A stretch of 64,000 bases of DNA from an uncultured Candidatus Binatia bacterium (GCA_965218395.1 OZ244620.1:2961546-3025545); one strand, 5' to 3'. Numbered from the stretch's first letter, positions 55,266 through 64,000 are shown. A program made the numbers and translations. The notes: generated from the sequence alone by a model not told the origin.

Positions 55266-55331
55266 CTGGGATGCTGATACAACAGACCGCCTGTTTCAGC
55301 GTATGAGTCTGCTTTCCCAAGGAGCGAGTTG

Positions 55332-58604
<3,273 letters not shown>

Positions 58605-58654
58605 ACGGTTGACGCTCCTTTACGTCAGACTGCGATAAATACACCGCTTGATTA

Positions 58655-58691
58655 TTTCTCCTTACCCGCATAGGTTTTTTGTAAGGAGAAA
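58655..58691 (+). promoter_or_regulatory. 10-bp perfect inverted repeat TTTCTCCTTA-N17-TAAGGAGAAA overlapping the vapB RBS
   Basis: The 3' arm contains the AAGGAG Shine-Dalgarno of vapB. Candidate operator or RBS-sequestering hairpin. Confidence 0.3.
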
Positions 58692-58695
58692 CATC

Positions 58696-58947
58696 ATGGT
58701 GGTAAAGATCACATCAAAGCGACAGGTCACATTCCCGGCGAGGGTGCTGGACGCGCTCGGGGTAGGTCCCGGCGACCAACTCGAACTGGAAGAAGGCCCT
58801 GACGGCTTCATTTTACGCCCGCGACGGATAGATTTGTCTCGGCTCGGGGGGCTTCGCGACAAGATTCCACCCGGACATCCGCCGTTCGACATCCGCAAGT
58901 TCCGGGACCAGCGGGAACAAGGACATGGCCCTGCACTACGGTATTGA
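58696..58947 (+). CDS. vapB: AbrB/MazE/SpoVT-type antitoxin VapB
   Basis: MVVKITSKRQVTFPARVLDALGVGPGDQLELEE swapped-hairpin domain. Confidence 0.75.
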   Translation: MVVKITSKRQVTFPARVLDALGVGPGDQLELEEGPDGFILRPRRIDLSRLGGLRDKIPPGHPPFDIRKFRDQREQGHGPALRY

Positions 58948-59320
58948 TACCTCGGTGCTCGTACGGCTGCTCACCGGCGAGCCTCCCGACGCATTTGCGC
59001 ACTGTGTGGAACGACTGAATGCGCTCGTTGTCAGCGGCGCGGAGATATTCGCGTCGAATCAGGTTATCGGAGAAGCCTACGTCGCGGTCCAGCACCACTA
59101 CCACGTATCTGAGACCGATGCCCGTTCGGAGTTGTCAAGAGCGCTGACCAGCGGTCTGGTTGCCCCTCTCAACGGGCGGGCCGTTATTGAGGCCCTGGAA
59201 GCGTCAGGCGGCCCCGGTCTGTTCGACCGCCTCATCGCTGACGACTATTCCCGCGCTGGTCTAGAAGTCCTGACGCTGGACCGCAAGATGGCTGCCTTGT
59301 CCGATGTCCGGCGTCTGTAG
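58925..59320 (+). CDS. vapC: PIN-domain toxin VapC
   Basis: MALHYGIDTSVLVRLL N-terminal acidic PIN motif. Overlaps vapB by 23 nt. Confidence 0.8.
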   Translation: MALHYGIDTSVLVRLLTGEPPDAFAHCVERLNALVVSGAEIFASNQVIGEAYVAVQHHYHVSETDARSELSRALTSGLVAPLNGRAVIEALEASGGPGLFDRLIADDYSRAGLEVLTLDRKMAALSDVRRL

Positions 59321-59388
59321 GCCGAGGATTGAGGATGTAGGGAAACACTTTCAGAGTGTGAATGGTTAGCTGAATACTATTGTAGGAG

Positions 59389-60357
59389 GTGTCAGCTTTG
59401 CCGATATTTGACCTGTTCTCGAAACGTCAAAAGAAACTTCGAGGAGAGACTCCTGACGTTTACGTCTACGACGAACTCCCTAATCCTCTTAGGGTACAGA
59501 TTGTTCACATCTGGAGGGATACTCTTGGGAATGATGCACAATATAATGGCGTGGCATACGGTGATTACCGCTACAGATCGGTAAGAGAAGCTTATCGGTT
59601 CATAGTCAATACCTTATGTCACGAATATGGTGTTTTCACTCTACCGGGAACAATGGAGCGTTATGGAGATGGAAATTACGTTGAAGAACTCAGAGATTTC
59701 TTCCTTCAAGAAGAAGATGTCGAAAAGGCCCTTGATGCGGTAGAGTTGTCATTTCTGACCATAGACCGCTTTACGAGAAGCTTGAATTACCTAGAACGAA
59801 GGGATGCGTCAGAGAGAGCAGACCGTGCAACAGAGGAGCTAAATGCTAGGTTCAAGGAGCATGGTGTTGGTTATCAATTTACAAACGGAGAAATTATTCG
59901 TGTCGATTCCGAATTGATTCATTCTGAGGTTGTTCAGCCAGCTCTAAAGCTGCTCAATCAAGAACACTATGCCGGAGCGCAACAGGAGTTCTTAACGGCA
60001 CACGAACACTACCGAAAGGGTGACACGAAAGAAGCCCTCAACGAGTGTCTCAAATCGTTCGAGAGCGTAATGAAGGCGATTTGCGACAAGAGAGGCTGGA
60101 GTTACGCCAATAATGCAACAGCAAACTCTTTAATACAGGTATGTTTTGATAACGGATTGATTCCACCGTTCTGGCAATCACAGTATGCGTCACTAAGAAG
60201 TCTTTTGGAGAGTGGGGTCCCTACTGGACGAAACAAGTTGAGTGGTCACGGTCAAGGCACTACTCCGGTATCCGTGCCAGATCACGTTGTCGCTTATATG
60301 CTGCACATGACGGCATCAGCAATCGTATTTCTAGCCGAAGCTGATGCAAATTTATGA
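59389..60357 (+). CDS. HEPN-domain protein, AbiJ-like (putative abortive-infection/defense)
   Basis: C-terminal R-x5-H motif (RNKLSGH) within a helical HEPN-like region. The local GC is lower than the flanks. A TTG at 59398 after AGGAGG is a likely alternative start. Confidence 0.5.
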   Translation: MSALPIFDLFSKRQKKLRGETPDVYVYDELPNPLRVQIVHIWRDTLGNDAQYNGVAYGDYRYRSVREAYRFIVNTLCHEYGVFTLPGTMERYGDGNYVEELRDFFLQEEDVEKALDAVELSFLTIDRFTRSLNYLERRDASERADRATEELNARFKEHGVGYQFTNGEIIRVDSELIHSEVVQPALKLLNQEHYAGAQQEFLTAHEHYRKGDTKEALNECLKSFESVMKAICDKRGWSYANNATANSLIQVCFDNGLIPPFWQSQYASLRSLLESGVPTGRNKLSGHGQGTTPVSVPDHVVAYMLHMTASAIVFLAEADANL

Positions 60358-60557
60358 TGACGTCAAGAAATTGGGCGATATCGCTTTTCAACTCGGCCTT
60401 GACTTCAGCAGCGAAGTCCACCGGCACCCTCTCACCTTGTTTCGGCCTCTCCGGCTGTGTACATTCCCAGGCCATGTCTCCAGTTGACACCCCGTGGAGG
60501 GCTTTGTAGACTCCTTCCGGTAAAGAGACCGCCCGCCGATTTCCCAGGTCGTGAGGA

Positions 60558-61205
60558 ATGGAGTGTCGCATGTCTTGTTCGTTTCGTAGCGTAGGCTTGG
60601 CCCTGGTCATCGTTACCGCGGGATGTGTCGTGGCCGACCGGCCAGCACGGGCGGAAACTGATGCGGAAGCCGACCTCCAGCCCGGAACGACCTCCTTCGA
60701 TTGTACAACCAGCGCGGTTGATTACCTGGACGATCCGTCCCTCACCCGAGCAGAGAAACTGGCACGTATGGACGTGGCGCTCAGCCAGTCCCTTGACCAA
60801 TTTGAGGCCTGCCACGCCGTGAGCGGCCAGGCTGCCGCCCCCACTCCCGCGGCCGCAGGACAGACGACCCCGGACGCCGCTGCAACGCTCGGAGGAGACC
60901 CGGTTCGGTCGGTCGCGTCATCCGAAATAGCCGGTACCGAGGCCCCGTCGGTCCGCGGCGAATCGGCCCCGTCCACTCCGCCGGCCTCCGTGGCAATGCC
61001 CGTCGCCACGGCGGTGGCTGGGCAGGCGCAAGGACCCCTGCCCAACGGGCGCCTGCCAGCAGACATTCCTGCTGCCGACAACGATAGCGTCCTGGCGGCG
61101 CAGATACGCGAGGCGGCGATGCAGGAAACAGATCCGGAAAAGCGCAAGCGCTTGTGGGAAGAGTATCGCCGCTATAAAGACCGGGGCGTAGCGCAGGAAT
61201 ATTGA
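60558..61205 (+). CDS. Hypothetical lipoprotein with an Ala/Pro-rich linker
   Basis: Lipobox LALVIVTAGC, low-complexity linker, conserved-looking charged C-terminus. Confidence 0.5.
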   Translation: MECRMSCSFRSVGLALVIVTAGCVVADRPARAETDAEADLQPGTTSFDCTTSAVDYLDDPSLTRAEKLARMDVALSQSLDQFEACHAVSGQAAAPTPAAAGQTTPDAAATLGGDPVRSVASSEIAGTEAPSVRGESAPSTPPASVAMPVATAVAGQAQGPLPNGRLPADIPAADNDSVLAAQIREAAMQETDPEKRKRLWEEYRRYKDRGVAQEY

Positions 61206-61243
61206 GCCGACCCGGGAAACTGCCGCACCCATACGGAAGAAAC

Positions 61244-62494
61244 ATGCCGCTATGTAAAAAGTTCATGGTGTACCTCGCCTGTCTTGCCCTTGCGCTGTCG
61301 GGCTGTACGACGCATAGCGGTAGGCTGCCTGGGCCGGGTCGGCCCGCGGTCGGCCCACCACCGTCCTCCTCTCCGCTCCACAAGACGGAGGCTGCACGAG
61401 CGTCCGTCCGCCAGGGGCCGCGATTGGACATTGCTATTCCGGTATTTGATCCGGGGCTGTCGGAGGCTGCCGTCAAGTATGCCGAGCAGGGTGTATGGCC
61501 GGAACTGCGCCGGGCCGAGGCCAACCGCTTCGCCTATAAACTGAAATTGGCACTTGAAGAAACCGAGGTCTTTGGGGCTGTGCGCGTCACCCCCGACGCT
61601 ACCGCGGCCGCGGACTTATATATCCTGGGACGGATCGAGGAGTCGAACGGTGAAACGGTGGCTCTCAACGTGGCCGTCAGCGATATTTCCGGCGCCGAGT
61701 GGTTGAACAAACCCTTTCGCCATACCGTCGGAGCCGGCTTCCATAAGAATAGTCGGAACGCCGGTAAGGACGCCTACGACCCGGTGTTTGAGCGCATTGC
61801 GCGCGCCCTGGTTGAGCAGCTCGACCGCCAGGACCATTCCGCTGCGTGTCTCAAAATGCTGACGGATATGCGCTTTGGTACGAGCCTGGCGGAGGAGGCG
61901 TTTGCTGAACACCTCAAACAGGAGTCTGGTCAATTCGTCCTGGCGGGTTATCCGAGCGATGATGATCCCATGCTGCGGCGCACCAGAGACCTGCGGGTCC
62001 ATGACCAACTGTTCGTCGATGATCTTCAGGACCACTACCGGACCTTCGGGGACGAGATGAACAACAGCTATCTGGTCTGGCAGGAACACAGTCTCGTCGA
62101 GGTCCAGGCCCAACGGGCCGCCAAACGCAAGTCCCTGCTCCAGGGGGTCGGGGGAGCCTTGTTGGTCGGTCTGGCGATTGCCGCCCTCGGCGCCTCCGCG
62201 GCGACCGCATCGCCCATGACGTCGTCGGCTGCGGCAGTGGGAGGGGTGGCGGCAGGGGTGGCTGGTGCGGCCATGATTGCGAAAAGCTTCCAGACGAGTG
62301 CCGAGGCAAAGGTCCACCGGGATGCGCTCAATGAGCTTGGGGAATCTATTGATGTTGAACTCTCACCGCGGGTGGTCGCGTTTGAGAAAGACACTGAAAA
62401 ACTGACTGGCACGGCCAAGGAACAGTTCGGTCAATGGCGCGCATTTCTCCAGAGGATTTACGAGCAGGAGCGAACACCGGAGGTGGAACTCTAA
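61244..62494 (+). CDS. Hypothetical lipoprotein with a C-terminal Ala/Gly-rich hydrophobic segment
   Basis: Lipobox LALALSGC. The mid-region block DIAIPVFDPGLSE..GAVRV is loosely reminiscent of CsgG/LpoB-type lipoproteins. The C-terminal segment may be a TM helix. Confidence 0.5.
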   Translation: MPLCKKFMVYLACLALALSGCTTHSGRLPGPGRPAVGPPPSSSPLHKTEAARASVRQGPRLDIAIPVFDPGLSEAAVKYAEQGVWPELRRAEANRFAYKLKLALEETEVFGAVRVTPDATAAADLYILGRIEESNGETVALNVAVSDISGAEWLNKPFRHTVGAGFHKNSRNAGKDAYDPVFERIARALVEQLDRQDHSAACLKMLTDMRFGTSLAEEAFAEHLKQESGQFVLAGYPSDDDPMLRRTRDLRVHDQLFVDDLQDHYRTFGDEMNNSYLVWQEHSLVEVQAQRAAKRKSLLQGVGGALLVGLAIAALGASAATASPMTSSAAAVGGVAAGVAGAAMIAKSFQTSAEAKVHRDALNELGESIDVELSPRVVAFEKDTEKLTGTAKEQFGQWRAFLQRIYEQERTPEVEL

Positions 62495-62496
62495 CC

Positions 62497-63879
62497 GTGT
62501 ACAGGGTCACGCCGGCCGTCGACCTATTGGCCCTGGGGTTGCAGCTCGCCTTCATTGTTTTTACTCAATCTGCCTCCGCGGACACCGCCCGCGCCACGTC
62601 CGAAGCGGCTGCCCGCCCCGCCGCCTCTTCCGGTTCCGGGCTGAGCGCCAATCCGCAGCCTGCGCACTTCAAGGCGCTGCTGCGTGAGTATGTGGACGAT
62701 ATAGAGCCAGCTATCCAAAGCGAGGCGTTTGGTGCCTGGGACGCCGTTGTCCAACAGGAGGTCGCGGACCTGAAGGCAGCCGCGCTGCAGGCGTTCAGCC
62801 AGGGACAGTATACGGACGCCGTGGTCAAGCTCGGGGCATTAGTTGCCCTCAGCCGCACCGCCCTGCGCGCGCGCGAGGCCGCCTTTACCACGGCACTTTC
62901 CGCGGCGCGCCGACAGAGTGACGCCGACAATTACGAGGCGGCTCTGGTGCAGATCACCGCAGCGCTGCGCATTCGGCCGGACTCAGCGGCTGCGGCGCGG
63001 CTGTACACCAAGATTCAGACCCTACCACAGGTGGTGGCGTATCTGCGCGCGGCCCGGACCGCGGCCGCGGAAAATAATCCAGAGGCGGAACTGCGGGCTC
63101 TGGAGGAAGTCGTGAAGAGAGACCCGGAGCGGCGGGGAGTCCGCGGCCGGGTGGCGACACTTCGCTCGGCCCGCCAGGACGAGCGCTACCGCCGCGCTAT
63201 TACGCGCGGATTGCGGGCGGTAGCGCACGGCGCCCTTGACGCGGCCCGGCAGCATCTGACCGCGGCGCAGCGTCTCTTCTCCGGGCGGGCCGAAACGGCG
63301 CTGCTGGCAGAACAGCTGCGTGCAGCCGAGCGCCACGATCAGGTTGAGCGGCTGCTGGAAACGGCCCGCGCCGCGGTCGCGTCCGACGATTGGGAAGCCG
63401 CGCTCAACGCCTACCGCCAGGCTGAGCAGCGTGCTGCTGGTAGCGCGCCGGCAGTGCAGGGCCGCAAGACGGCGGACCACATTGTGTCTCTCCTCAAGGC
63501 GGTTGACGCCCACCTCGCCGCCGCGCACCGACTGTCTTCACCACACGTGGCGGCGCACGTCCGGACCCTGGTCGCCGAAAGCCTGCGCGTGGGACACGTC
63601 AGCCCGAAACTGGTAGCGCGCACCTCGGAACTCCAACAGGTGCTTGATCGCTATTCCAGACCGATCGCGGTCCGCGTCATCTCCGACGGCAAGACGCGTG
63701 TCTCCGTCAGGGGGGTCGGCCGGGTCGGGAGTGTTGTCTCAAAGGTGATTCATCTCAAGCCGGGTGACTATCGGTTTGAGGGCCGCCGGAGCGGTTATAG
63801 ATCGAAAATCGTCCCGGTCCGGATCTCACCCTCCACGGCCGACGTACAGGTGGCAGTCGTCTGCGATGAGCCAATTTGA
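62497..63879 (+). CDS. Secreted Ala/Arg-rich helical-repeat (TPR-like) protein with a C-terminal PEGA-like beta domain
   Basis: GTG start 11 nt after GGAGGTGG and 2 nt after the upstream stop. Signal peptide. C-terminal IAVRVISDGKTRVSVRGVG...GDYRFEGRRSGYRSKIVPV is PEGA-like. Confidence 0.5.
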   Translation: MYRVTPAVDLLALGLQLAFIVFTQSASADTARATSEAAARPAASSGSGLSANPQPAHFKALLREYVDDIEPAIQSEAFGAWDAVVQQEVADLKAAALQAFSQGQYTDAVVKLGALVALSRTALRAREAAFTTALSAARRQSDADNYEAALVQITAALRIRPDSAAAARLYTKIQTLPQVVAYLRAARTAAAENNPEAELRALEEVVKRDPERRGVRGRVATLRSARQDERYRRAITRGLRAVAHGALDAARQHLTAAQRLFSGRAETALLAEQLRAAERHDQVERLLETARAAVASDDWEAALNAYRQAEQRAAGSAPAVQGRKTADHIVSLLKAVDAHLAAAHRLSSPHVAAHVRTLVAESLRVGHVSPKLVARTSELQQVLDRYSRPIAVRVISDGKTRVSVRGVGRVGSVVSKVIHLKPGDYRFEGRRSGYRSKIVPVRISPSTADVQVAVVCDEPI

Positions 63880-64000
63880 CCAACGTCTGAAAACGGCGCG
63901 CCAGCGTCAGTTGAACTACTTTACGCTCGTGGCGGCTGCCTTGGTCGGTAGCGTGCTGGTTGTGGTGTGCGCCCTGCTGTATACAAGCCGGACCGTCGTT
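63866..64000 (+). CDS. Membrane-anchored protein, 5' fragment (continues past the window end)
   Basis: The ATG overlaps the previous stop (ATGAGCCAATTTGA). MSQFDQRLKTARQRQ followed by a TM segment. Confidence 0.4.
   Translation, partial: MSQFDQRLKTARQRQLNYFTLVAAALVGSVLVVVCALLYTSRTVV

What the first reader, a model, noticed from the sequence alone, without database searches (positions are those of the whole stretch)
60558..64000. Translationally coupled four-gene operon of lipoproteins and a secreted helical-repeat/PEGA protein with no recognisable named family
Four plus-strand genes abut or overlap at their junctions: the 61205 stop against the 61202/61244 start, the 62494 stop against the 62497 GTG, and ATGAGCCAATTTGA overlap at 63866. 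The first is a lipoprotein with an Ala/Pro-rich linker. The second is a lipoprotein with a CsgG/LpoB-reminiscent block and an Ala/Gly-rich hydrophobic tail. The third is a signal-peptide Ala/Arg-rich helical-repeat protein ending in a PEGA-like beta domain. The fourth is a membrane-anchored protein running off the window. All appear envelope-located. Tight coupling suggests a stoichiometric cell-envelope complex, with S-layer/PEGA or peptidoglycan-associated flavour, that I cannot name.
Basis: inference. Interest (0 to 1): 0.55.

Follow-up and report, generated by a model that had tools for sequence, protein, structure and literature searches.

The report
Eight-gene proton-motor envelope machine
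The four genes are real and form the first half of an eight-gene set, kept in the same order in many bacterial groups, that joins outer-membrane and periplasmic proteins to a proton-driven motor of the Tol/Ton/flagellar-stator type; what the set does in the cell is unknown.

Summary
The four plus-strand genes exist, are under purifying selection and are tightly packed. The window comes from a Candidatus Binatia genome. A 97%-identical contig shows the operon continues for four more genes. All eight genes (g1-g8) occur in the same order in every sufficiently long locus of 80 examined. These span Binatia, Alpha-, Beta-, Gamma- and Zetaproteobacteria, Desulfobacterota, and single Myxococcota and Caldithrix genomes. 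No flanking gene is co-conserved.

- g1: secreted, largely disordered protein with three conserved motifs.
- g2: universal lipoprotein with a PelC/CsgG/TolB-N/LpoB-type domain and a Gly/Ala helical hairpin.
- g3: TPR superhelix plus a transthyretin-like (PEGA-clan) beta-sandwich.
- g4: membrane-anchored, with PEGA repeats and a non-catalytic FGE/PorK-like domain.
- g5: micro-protein ending in an invariant SFPVDI.
- g6: MotA/TolQ/ExbB channel.
- g7 and g8: paralogues with an Asp-bearing membrane helix, a coiled coil and a vWA/MIDAS head. No TolR/ExbD gene is present.

A 2025 in-silico paper describes a motor of this kind (a TolQ-like gene with paired vWA genes, function unknown), but I found no description of the eight-gene module. 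The S-layer flavour and the g1 lipoprotein call are not. Function remains inferred.

The parts
60484..60512 (+). Promoter-like site TTGACA-17-TAGACT upstream of g1. It is a consensus match only.
   Evidence: one site found against 0.5 expected. No plus-strand terminator-like site lies between 60200 and 64000.
60570..61205 (+). g1: secreted periplasmic protein of 211 aa. An alternative ATG lies at 60558. It has a signal peptide with a marginal lipobox VTAGC (60612-60626). Three conserved blocks lie in otherwise Ala/Pro/Gly-rich disordered sequence: an N block with two Cys, DCT..LTR.E..MD.A..SL..FE.C (60699-60812); a middle motif S(V/I)ASS.(I/M)(A/S)GTE (60909-60941); and a C block NG..P.DIP.ADNDS.L.AQIR.AA..E.DP..K..LW.EYR.YK (61044-61187).
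   Evidence: (alignment A3). No Pfam or NCBIfam family. GAGGA at 60553 lies 12 nt before ATG 60570.
61244..62494 (+). g2: lipoprotein of 416 aa. The lipobox LSGC is at 61295-61306, with Cys21 and Thr at +2. A PelC/CsgG/TolB-N/LptE/LpoB-type alpha/beta domain covers residues 55-235 (61406-61948). A long helix covers residues 242-320 (61967-62203). A Gly/Ala-rich helical hairpin covers residues 301-346 (62144-62281). A conserved C-terminal helical segment ends in ERTPEV.L (62282-62491).
62497..63879 (+). g3: 460 aa from GTG 62497, which has SD GGAGGTG at 62479. Gene callers use ATG 62434 (481 aa). Signal peptide or anchor at 62497-62580. TPR superhelix at residues 53-387 (62653-63657). C-terminal transthyretin-like (PEGA-clan) beta-sandwich at residues 390-453 (63664-63855).
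   Evidence: TPR_2 in 26 of 32 homologues; AF2 model, pLDDT 88; Foldseek: TPR proteins, and the carboxypeptidase D/N/M regulatory domain at 7e-4; weak hhalign to the g4 PEGA repeats; N-terminal membrane anchor in other phyla.
63866..64000 (+). g4, first 45 codons only. It overlaps g3 by 14 nt. A conserved cytoplasmic motif MSQF..L..AR.RQ is followed by a membrane helix (63917-63982). The full protein in the 97%-identical contig L001 is 670 aa: about five beta-sandwich (PEGA) modules, then a non-catalytic FGE-sulfatase/PorK-like domain.
   Evidence: PEGA 102.6 bits, FGE-sulfatase 125.3 bits; GldK partial match; no conserved Cys pair; human FGE 2e-18, PorK 2e-14.

Best explanation
The four genes encode the periplasmic and outer-membrane half of a self-contained eight-gene module. 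The module builds a trans-envelope machine energised by the proton-motive force.

Shown:
- The genes are real, tightly packed and collinear with g5-g8 in every adequately long locus.
- g6 is a MotA/TolQ/ExbB-family channel.
- g7 and g8 are paralogues. Each has an invariant Asp in an N-terminal membrane helix, a coiled coil of about 90 residues and a vWA domain with DxSxS.
- No TolR/ExbD/MotB gene is present.
- g2 is a universal lipoprotein. Its fold is that of ring-forming proteins that sit under the outer membrane.
- g3 and g4 are anchored or secreted periplasmic proteins built from TPR, beta-sandwich and FGE/PorK-like modules.

Inferred mechanism:
1. Five g6 subunits surround a g7/g8 heterodimer, as in TolQR, ExbBD and MotAB.
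2. Proton flow through the two Asp residues turns or tensions the dimer.
3. Its coiled-coil stalk carries the two vWA heads across the periplasm.
4. The heads bind, through their metal sites, an acidic motif on a partner. Candidates are the g1 C-block, the g5 C-terminal ...SFPVDI, or g2.
5. g2 forms a lipid-anchored ring in the inner face of the outer membrane.
6. The inner-membrane-anchored g4 (a PEGA rod with an FGE-like head) and g3 (TPR) form the static scaffold that reaches this ring.

The net effect would be Tol-Pal-like: PMF-dependent pulling on, or repositioning of, an outer-membrane lipoprotein assembly. The roles of TolQ, TolR/TolA, TolB-N/Pal and CpoB would be filled by non-orthologous parts (g6, g7/g8, g2, g3). 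The cellular purpose is not known; outer-membrane tethering or remodelling is my best guess.
For: - The operon extends to eight genes in a 97%-identical contig and an 81%-related 6-Mb genome.
- All eight genes occur in the same order and on the same strand wherever the flanks suffice, in 80 loci from about 8 classes or phyla.
- No flanking gene is shared by more than 12 of 63 loci.
- Junction spacing is conserved: g3/g4 overlap 14 nt in 53 of 57 loci; g7/g8 overlap 4 nt in 49 of 61; g6/g7 share NTGA in 23 of 61; g5/g6 are 1-2 nt apart in 28 of 41.
- g6 matches PF01618 at 50.3 bits against a cut-off of 22.9. Its invariant Thr190 and Thr223 lie in the membrane helices.
- g7 and g8 have invariant Asp16 and Asp17 in the N-terminal helix and an invariant DxSxS. 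They are paralogues by hhalign (99.4%, E 2e-21). VWA_2 matches 31 of 32 g7 homologues.
- A variant lineage fuses a TonB_C domain to g2 inside an otherwise complete module, in a cluster of 52 members.
- g4 has an FGE/PorK-like domain without the catalytic Cys pair.
- g3 model.
- A published in-silico description covers TolQ-like genes paired with two Asp-helix vWA genes and no tolR/exbD (PMC12204202).
Against: - There are no experimental data for any member.
- g5-g8 are not in the window. Their presence is inferred from a 97%-identical contig.
- Co-transcription is not shown.
- Homology of the g7/g8 helix to TolR/ExbD is not statistically demonstrated.
- The vWA assignment for g8 is weak. No solved vWA structure is found by sequence for either protein.
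- The g2 Gly/Ala hairpin is modelled with low confidence. Its ring formation rests on analogy only.
- A distant g1-g2 pair occurs without g3-g8 beside it (L087). g1 and g2 can therefore function, or at least persist, apart from the motor genes.
- Every proposed contact (vWA head to ligand, g4 to g2) is inference.
Confidence: 0.6

Rival explanations
1. Same architecture, different job. The module is an export or assembly apparatus for a surface polymer or protein. g2 forms the outer-membrane conduit or funnel, like PelC or the alpha-helical barrels of Wza. g3 is the TPR scaffold, like PelB or BcsC. The motor supplies the energy, as PorLM does for type 9 secretion.
Against: The module and its flanks contain no glycosyltransferase, polymerase, beta-barrel, ATPase or cargo gene. 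TraT, the nearest lipoprotein with an alpha-helical outer-membrane anchor, forms no pore (PMC11733297). g4 falls far below the GldK cut-off (83.5 against 350 bits).
Confidence: 0.15
2. The complex is a static envelope scaffold or adhesion/sensor module. The g6 channel with g7/g8 acts as a PMF- or ion-gated switch, or signals envelope state. It does not do mechanical work on g1-g4.
For: vWA/MIDAS and TPR domains are generic protein-binding modules. No force-bearing peptidoglycan or outer-membrane anchor domain such as OmpA-like was found in g7/g8.
Against: Every characterised member of the MotA/TolQ/ExbB family with an Asp-helix partner converts ion flow into mechanical work (established knowledge; see also PMC12204202). 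The long coiled coils and the TonB_C fusion variant fit force transmission.
Confidence: 0.1
3. It is an anti-phage defence system of the Zorya type, with a MotAB-like sensor in the envelope. This would fit its position next to toxin-antitoxin and AbiJ-like genes.
For: Weak ZorA hits for g6 (PADLOC E 0.0016-0.0033; NCBIfam ZorA_4 E 0.019). The upstream neighbours are MazE/PIN and AbiJ-like genes.
Against: No ZorB/C/D, nuclease, helicase or other effector is present, and no other PADLOC model is hit. All eight products are envelope proteins. The defence-like neighbours are not conserved with the module and differ even in the 97%-identical contig. The ZorA hits cover only the shared MotA/ExbB region.
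Confidence: 0.03
4. The four genes are merely adjacent envelope genes with unrelated functions.
For: No direct interaction data. A distant g1-g2 pair occurs alone.
Against: Order and spacing are strictly conserved over several phyla, down to an identical 14-nt g3/g4 overlap.
Confidence: 0.02

Closest known systems
[quoted passage not shown] 4c-d)
   Same: A tolQ-like gene sits tightly next to a heterologous pair of membrane-tethered vWA genes. No tolR/exbD/motB is present. Each vWA protein has a TolR/ExbD-like helix with a conserved Asp. Function is unknown. g6-g8 match every stated feature.
   Different: The paper does not mention the five upstream genes; the words lipoprotein (in this context), PEGA and sulfatase are absent. 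Its seed is Idiomarina loihiensis. I could not obtain those sequences, so orthology with g6-g8 is not verified.
Tol-Pal system (TolQ-TolR-TolA-TolB-Pal-CpoB)
   Different: No TolR periplasmic domain, TolA/TonB C-domain (except in the fusion variant), TolB beta-propeller or OmpA-like Pal domain was detected. The heads are vWA/MIDAS domains. g1, g4 and g5 have no Tol-Pal counterpart.
Type 9 secretion / gliding core PorKLMN (GldKLMN)
   Same: An ion-driven 5:2 motor has a dimeric partner that spans the periplasm towards a ring under the outer membrane. That ring contains an FGE-fold protein (PorK/GldK). The g4 head matches PorK (2e-14) and the GldK model partially (1.8e-23).
   Different: g4 is anchored in the inner membrane by an N-terminal helix with a PEGA rod; it is not a lipoprotein. 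It scores far below the GldK cut-off. No PorL/M/N homologues are present. The host taxa are not Bacteroidota.
Ring-forming outer-membrane lipoproteins: PelC (dodecamer), CsgG, TraT (decamer with alpha-helical membrane barrel), and the Vibrio flagellar LPHT-ring protein in 8z5n
   Different: No significant sequence similarity (TraT Pfam 14.6 against 31 bits). g2 has an extra helix of about 80 residues and a conserved C-terminal segment. Oligomerisation is not shown.
Zorya ZorAB
   Same: A MotA-family channel is paired with an Asp-helix partner and a long coiled coil.
   Different: In Zorya the coiled-coil tail is cytoplasmic and on ZorA, and effectors ZorC/D are needed. Here the coiled coils are on the partner proteins and periplasmic, and no effector is present.

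Membership tests
MotA/TolQ/ExbB proton-channel family (g6; outside the window) | Match to Pfam PF01618 above the gathering score | tested here: met
   50.3 bits against a cut-off of 22.9, E 2.5e-13.
MotA/TolQ/ExbB proton-channel family (g6) | Conserved Thr residues in the last two membrane helices that line the ion path (TolQ T145/T178; established knowledge) | tested here: inconclusive
   Thr190 and Thr223 are invariant in 33 sequences.
MotA/TolQ/ExbB proton-channel family (g6) | 5:2 assembly with a dimeric partner | not testable with these tools
   No multimer prediction or experiment was available.
TolQ-like / paired Asp-helix vWA motor (PMC12204202) | A tolQ-like gene directly adjacent to two different vWA genes, with no tolR/exbD/motB | tested here: met
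   g7 and g8 are paralogues. No conserved extra gene lies in the flanks.
TolQ-like / paired Asp-helix vWA motor (PMC12204202) | N-terminal membrane helix with a conserved Asp in each vWA protein | tested here: met
   Asp16 (g7) and Asp17 (g8) are invariant in 32 sequences each.
TolQ-like / paired Asp-helix vWA motor (PMC12204202) | vWA fold with a metal-ion-dependent adhesion site | tested here: met
   g7: VWA_2 in 31 of 32, best E 6e-10. DxSxS is invariant in both, and TDG (g7) and GDD (g8) are invariant. g8 alone is weak, but it aligns with g7 across the domain.
TolQ-like / paired Asp-helix vWA motor (PMC12204202) | Orthology with the published seed (Idiomarina loihiensis) | not tested
   The seed sequences are not in the paper's held supplements.
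ExbD/TolR/MotB partner proteins (g7, g8) | Detectable sequence homology to the ExbD/TolR family | tested here: inconclusive
   One of 32 g8 sequences hits PF02472 at E 0.0022. The motif F-L-D-(I/V) followed by a hydrophobic run resembles P-(L/F)-(L/I)-D-V of TolR/ExbD (my knowledge).
Tol-Pal system | TolA/TonB-type C-domain, TolB beta-propeller, OmpA-like Pal | tested here: not met
   No such Pfam or NCBIfam hits in g1-g8. TonB_C occurs only as a fusion to g2 in one variant lineage.
Type 9 secretion PorK/GldK | NCBIfam TIGR03525 equivalog score, a lipoprotein signal, and neighbouring PorL/M/N | tested here: not met
   83.5 bits against a cut-off of 350, and a partial match only. g4 has an N-terminal membrane helix and no lipobox. 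No PorLMN genes are present.
Formylglycine-generating enzyme (g4 head) | PF03781 domain | tested here: met
   125.3 bits against a cut-off of 23.3. Human FGE E 2e-18.
Formylglycine-generating enzyme (g4 head) | Catalytic Cys pair (human Cys336/Cys341; established knowledge) | tested here: not met
   No conserved Cys in the C-terminal 180 residues of 65 homologues. The position aligned with residue 336 is a conserved Ser (the aligned PDB chain carries Ser there, and its identity as a C336S mutant is from memory).
PEGA domain | PF08308 match | tested here: met
   g4: 102.6 bits, three stretches.
   No Pfam PEGA hit in 32 homologues. hhalign to the g4 repeats gave E 8.5e-4 to 1.6e-2 with low probability. 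The fold is a transthyretin-like beta-sandwich matching the carboxypeptidase regulatory domain. That domain is in the same Pfam clan as PEGA by my knowledge.
Bacterial lipoprotein (g2) | Lipobox with an invariant Cys after a signal peptide | tested here: met
   75 of 79 under a strict pattern, plus 3 near-matches. Cys21 is invariant. No Asp at +2 in any of the 75 strict matches.
Bacterial lipoprotein (g1) | Conserved lipobox | tested here: not met
   14 of 78. The 81%-related genome has VTEIC. Most taxa have an A-x-A type cleavage site. A canonical lipobox occurs only in one Binatia sub-clade.
TPR proteins (g3) | TPR repeat matches and a superhelical fold | tested here: met
   TPR_2 in 26 of 32 homologues. 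The window copy itself is below threshold. Its AF2 model matches P58IPK and OGT TPR domains.
Zorya defence system | ZorA plus ZorB plus effector genes | tested here: not met
   Only weak ZorA-region hits for g6. Nothing for the other seven proteins.

The most novel reading that the evidence does not exclude
The eight genes build a previously uncharacterised kind of PMF-powered trans-envelope machine. In it the rotor/plug dimer of a 5:2 motor is itself the force transducer. The dimer ends in two metal-dependent adhesion (vWA) heads. These heads grip an outer-membrane lipoprotein ring (g2) through short conserved acidic motifs. The motifs would be supplied by a disordered adaptor (g1) and/or by a secreted peptide of about 15-19 residues with an invariant SFPVDI carboxy-terminus (g5). 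The machine would serve a cellular function distinct from Tol-Pal, Ton, flagellar, type 9 secretion, Agl-Glt and Zorya systems.
Probability: 0.4. Interest if true: 0.85.

Novelty: new variant of a known kind. Interest (0 to 1): 0.68.

Why it matters
Ion-driven 5:2 motors power flagella, TonB uptake, Tol-Pal envelope maintenance, gliding and type 9 secretion, and Zorya defence. Each newly understood system has revealed a new way of delivering inner-membrane energy to the outer membrane.

Here a complete, compact parts list of eight genes is conserved down to its gene overlaps. It is present in at least 293 species-level genomes from marine and sediment lineages, including Binatia, Zetaproteobacteria, Nitrosomonadaceae, Desulfocapsaceae and Rhodospirillales.

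- Three of its proteins (g1, g2, g5) belong to no curated family.
- The motor lacks a canonical TolR/ExbD.
- The module offers a testable model for how a vWA head could couple a motor to an outer-membrane lipoprotein.
- One cultured carrier, Denitrobaculum tricleocarpae R148, makes genetics feasible.
- The g7 start-codon finding also flags a systematic annotation error that removes the functionally critical Asp.

Tried and rejected
- Exact-sequence look-ups of the window's g2 and g3 found nothing. Context came from the 98%-identical homologue instead.
- Pfam and NCBIfam gave nothing above cut-off for g1-g3 of the window. The weak hits (DUF6381, TraT, SLATT, HemY_N, CbtA) were not pursued, except TraT and the glycine zipper as structural analogies.
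- PDB sequence searches with g7 and g8 profiles returned only coiled-coil noise.
- hhalign of the g3 C-domain against the g4 PEGA repeats was weak.
- PADLOC: no defence model apart from weak ZorA. The defence reading was rejected.
- Rfam: no RNA family in 58500-64000.
- A search for additional conserved neighbours found none.
- P0219, an apparent g1-g2 fusion of 899 aa, is a frameshifted low-coverage contig and was discarded.
- Apparent double copies in one MAG are strain variants or duplicate contigs: L015/L019 are 83% identical including flanks, and L029/L030 are 99% identical.
- Four literature searches found no description of the eight-gene cluster.
- The S-layer idea was rejected for lack of any S-layer domain.

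Full report
**What is in the window.** Four plus-strand ORFs fill 60558-64000.
- g1 most probably starts at ATG 60570, with GAGGA 12 nt upstream, and ends at 61205.
- g2 runs 61244-62494.
- g3 runs from GTG 62497 (GGAGGTG starts at 62479) to 63879. Gene callers prefer ATG 62434.
- g4 starts at 63866 and leaves the window after 45 codons.

A promoter-like site lies at 60484-60512. There is no plus-strand terminator-like site inside the block.

They are wrong for g1/g2. Homologues of g2 begin where ATG 61244 lies, so TTG 61202 is not the start and the spacing is 38 nt.

The genes are not chance ORFs.
- g2 alone has about 1000 word-search homologues and 1283 clusters at 50% identity with a profile.
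- Differences from relatives pile up at plus-frame third codon positions.

**The operon is twice as long.** The window's last 4.2 kb is 97% identical to a metagenomic contig, L001. L001 and an 81%-related 6.04-Mb Candidatus Binatia chromosome show four more genes after g4:
- g5, 48 aa;
- g6, 269 aa, MotA_ExbB;
- g7, about 350 aa;
- g8, 315 aa.

After g8 come unrelated housekeeping genes (nadC, birA, coaX, fusA).

A scan of one genome per species found 293 relatives of g2. The best 80 loci were fetched: 9 Binatia, 30 Alphaproteobacteria (mostly Rhodospirillales), 15 Desulfobacterota, 11 Zetaproteobacteria, 7 Nitrosomonadaceae, 5 Gammaproteobacteria, and single Myxococcota, Caldithrix and unclassified genomes.

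In every locus with enough flank, g1-g8 are all present in the same order and on the same strand. An ORF ending in ...FPVDI lies between g4 and g6 in 60 of 63 loci. No gene outside g1-g8 is shared by more than 12 of 63 loci. The conserved unit is therefore exactly eight genes.

Spacing is conserved too:
- g3/g4 overlap by 14 nt in 53 of 57 loci;
- g7/g8 overlap by 4 nt in 49 of 61;
- g5/g6 are 1-2 nt apart in 28 of 41.

A divergent low-GC marine lineage (L086) still has all eight genes.

**The four products in the window.**

*g1.* It has no curated family. Alignment of 33 sequences (A3) shows a signal peptide and three conserved blocks separated by Gly/Ser/Ala/Pro-rich, length-variable sequence:
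- an N block with two Cys;
- a short S-(V/I)-A-S-S-x-M-S-G-T-E motif;
- an acidic, helical C block, NGK.PEDIPPADNDS.LEAQIR..LWNEYRKYKG.

Its lipobox is not conserved: 14 of 78 homologues have one, and the 81% relative has VTEIC. The lipoprotein call is doubtful for this organism.

After this domain come a helix of about 80 residues, two Gly/Ala-rich segments of 16-17 residues each (low confidence) and a conserved C-terminal segment. TraT, a decameric lipoprotein held in the outer membrane by an alpha-helical barrel that AlphaFold also fails to model, is a useful structural precedent (PMC11733297).

*g3.* Its model is confident (pLDDT 88). It has a TPR superhelix (residues 53-387) and a seven-strand beta-sandwich (390-453). 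The sandwich matches the transthyretin-like regulatory domain of carboxypeptidases D/N/M. TPR_2 is detected in 26 of 32 homologues. In other phyla the N-terminus is an uncleaved membrane anchor.

*g4.* The full-length protein from L001 has a conserved cytoplasmic motif, one membrane helix, about five beta-sandwich modules (PEGA, 102.6 bits) and an FGE-sulfatase domain (125.3 bits). The closest solved sequences are human FGE (2e-18) and PorK of type 9 secretion (2e-14). The catalytic Cys pair is absent from all 65 homologues. The domain is therefore a binding or structural module, as in PorK/GldK.

**The downstream half.**
- g6 passes the Pfam MotA_ExbB threshold and keeps two invariant Thr in its last helices.
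- g7 and g8 are paralogues (hhalign 99.4%). Each has a basic N-terminus, a membrane helix carrying an invariant Asp (FNLAFLDIMSCGLGA... and FNLSFLDVISCGFGA...), a coiled coil of about 90 residues, and a vWA domain with invariant DxSxS.
- No TolR/ExbD/MotB gene is present.
- g5 is a 45-60-residue ORF with a Sec-type signal peptide and an almost invariant C-terminus, SLNSP(A/T/V)SFPVDI.

**Comparison with what is known.** A 2025 paper (PMC12204202) predicted in silico a class of tolQ-like genes tightly linked to heterologous pairs of vWA genes. Those vWA proteins have 'transpore helices' carrying the conserved Asp, no tolR/exbD is present, and the function is unknown. g6-g8 fit that description feature by feature. 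The paper does not mention the upstream genes. I could not test orthology with its Idiomarina seed. Four full-text searches found no description of the eight-gene cluster.

The module is not Tol-Pal, type 9 secretion or Zorya by membership tests. It resembles Tol-Pal in logic: a channel, an Asp-helix partner with a periplasm-spanning helical stalk, a lipoprotein with a TolB-N-type domain, and a TPR protein. It resembles type 9 secretion in pairing a motor with an FGE-fold protein.

In one lineage g2 carries a C-terminal TonB_C domain, in a cluster of 52 members inside a complete module. This is a 'Rosetta-stone' link to force-transduction systems.

**Most likely mechanism (inferred).**
1. A g6 pentamer surrounds a g7/g8 heterodimer.
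2. Proton flow through the Asp residues drives the dimer.
3. The coiled coils carry the vWA heads outward.
4. The heads bind an acidic motif on g1, g5 or g2.
5. g2 forms a lipid-anchored ring under the outer membrane.
6. g4 (a PEGA rod with an FGE-like head) and g3 (TPR) are inner-membrane-anchored scaffolds reaching that ring.

The output would be PMF-dependent tension on, or repositioning of, an outer-membrane lipoprotein assembly. I put 0.6 on the statement that g1-g4 work with the motor as one machine. I put much less on any particular contact.

Rival readings:
- export apparatus, 0.15;
- non-mechanical switch or scaffold, 0.1;
- defence system, 0.03;
- unrelated neighbours, 0.02.

**Caveats.**
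- Everything about g5-g8 is inferred for this genome from a 97%-identical contig.
- Homology of the Asp helix to TolR/ExbD is not statistically shown.
- The vWA assignment for g8 is weak by itself.
- Ring formation by g2 is analogy.
- A distant g1-g2 pair occurs without g3-g8 beside it (L087). g1-g2 is therefore a separable sub-module.

**Verdict.** The finding is the envelope half of a widely conserved, essentially undescribed motor-coupled module. It is a new variant of the known kind 'PMF-driven trans-envelope systems'. Interest 0.68.

Noticed in passing
L001:13395-13460 (g6/g7 junction; downstream of the window) and the same place in 64 loci: The codon 13 positions upstream of the conserved F(L/I)D(I/V)M motif of g7 is NTG in all 64 loci: CTG 31, GTG 19, ATG 12, TTG 2. 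In 29 loci no ATG/GTG/TTG lies upstream of the Asp-bearing helix. In 23 of 61 loci the NTG overlaps the g6 stop by 4 nt; in L001 this reads CTGA. This suggests initiation at CTG by termination-reinitiation. Gene callers start g7 at an internal Met and so cut off the functionally critical Asp.
   Followed up: yes
L001:12441-12587 (g5); the equivalent ORF lies between g4 and g6 in 60 of 63 loci: A 45-60-codon ORF encodes a Sec-type signal peptide ending in A-x-A, then an almost invariant C-terminus SLNSP(A/T/V)SFPVDI. The mature product would be only about 15-19 residues. In a divergent low-GC lineage only ...AVSFPVDI is kept. The S-x-P-x-D pattern loosely resembles the C/S-x-P-x-R motif bound by true FGEs, so the non-catalytic FGE-like head of g4 is a candidate receptor. 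That idea is speculation and was not tested. In L007 and L009 the ORF reads on past FPVDI.
   Followed up: partly
L085:196-1845 and L086:1988-3637: In a low-GC (34%) marine lineage the g2 homologue carries an extra C-terminal TonB_C domain (PF03544, E 3e-15). The 549-aa form is seen on many independent contigs, in a cluster of 52 members. It sits inside a complete g1-g8 module.
   Followed up: partly
L087:9246-11212 (GCA_029782535.1, JARPSK010000054.1): A distant g2 homologue (30% identity) is preceded by a g1-like protein that keeps the C-block motif, but it is followed by an M16 peptidase gene instead of g3-g8. A TPR protein with a weak TonB_C hit lies 1.4 kb upstream. The g1-g2 pair thus exists apart from the motor genes, at least locally.
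   Followed up: partly
window 58648-60357: Between valS (55329-58604) and the module lie a MazE-type antitoxin (58693-58947), a PIN toxin (58925-59320) and an AbiJ_NTD4+DUF7014 protein (59389-60357). The AbiJ-like gene sits in a low-GC stretch (0.44-0.50, against about 0.60-0.65 around it). The 97%-identical contig L001 has an additional RelB/ParE pair and a 121-aa gene at this site. This site therefore varies in toxin-antitoxin/abortive-infection content between close strains.
   Followed up: partly
window 62434-62496 versus 62497: Automatic gene calls in relatives start g3 at the ATG that overlaps g2 by 61 nt. In a second Binatia clade that frame contains a stop, and g3 starts after the g2 stop (L006, L009). 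The apparent conservation of the extension is explained by the overlapping, highly conserved g2 C-terminus. GTG 62497, with its strong Shine-Dalgarno sequence, is the likelier start.
   Followed up: partly
L084:315-3014 (protein P0219): An 899-aa 'fusion' of g1 and g2 in the protein collection is an artefact of frameshifts in a 3x-coverage contig.
   Followed up: yes
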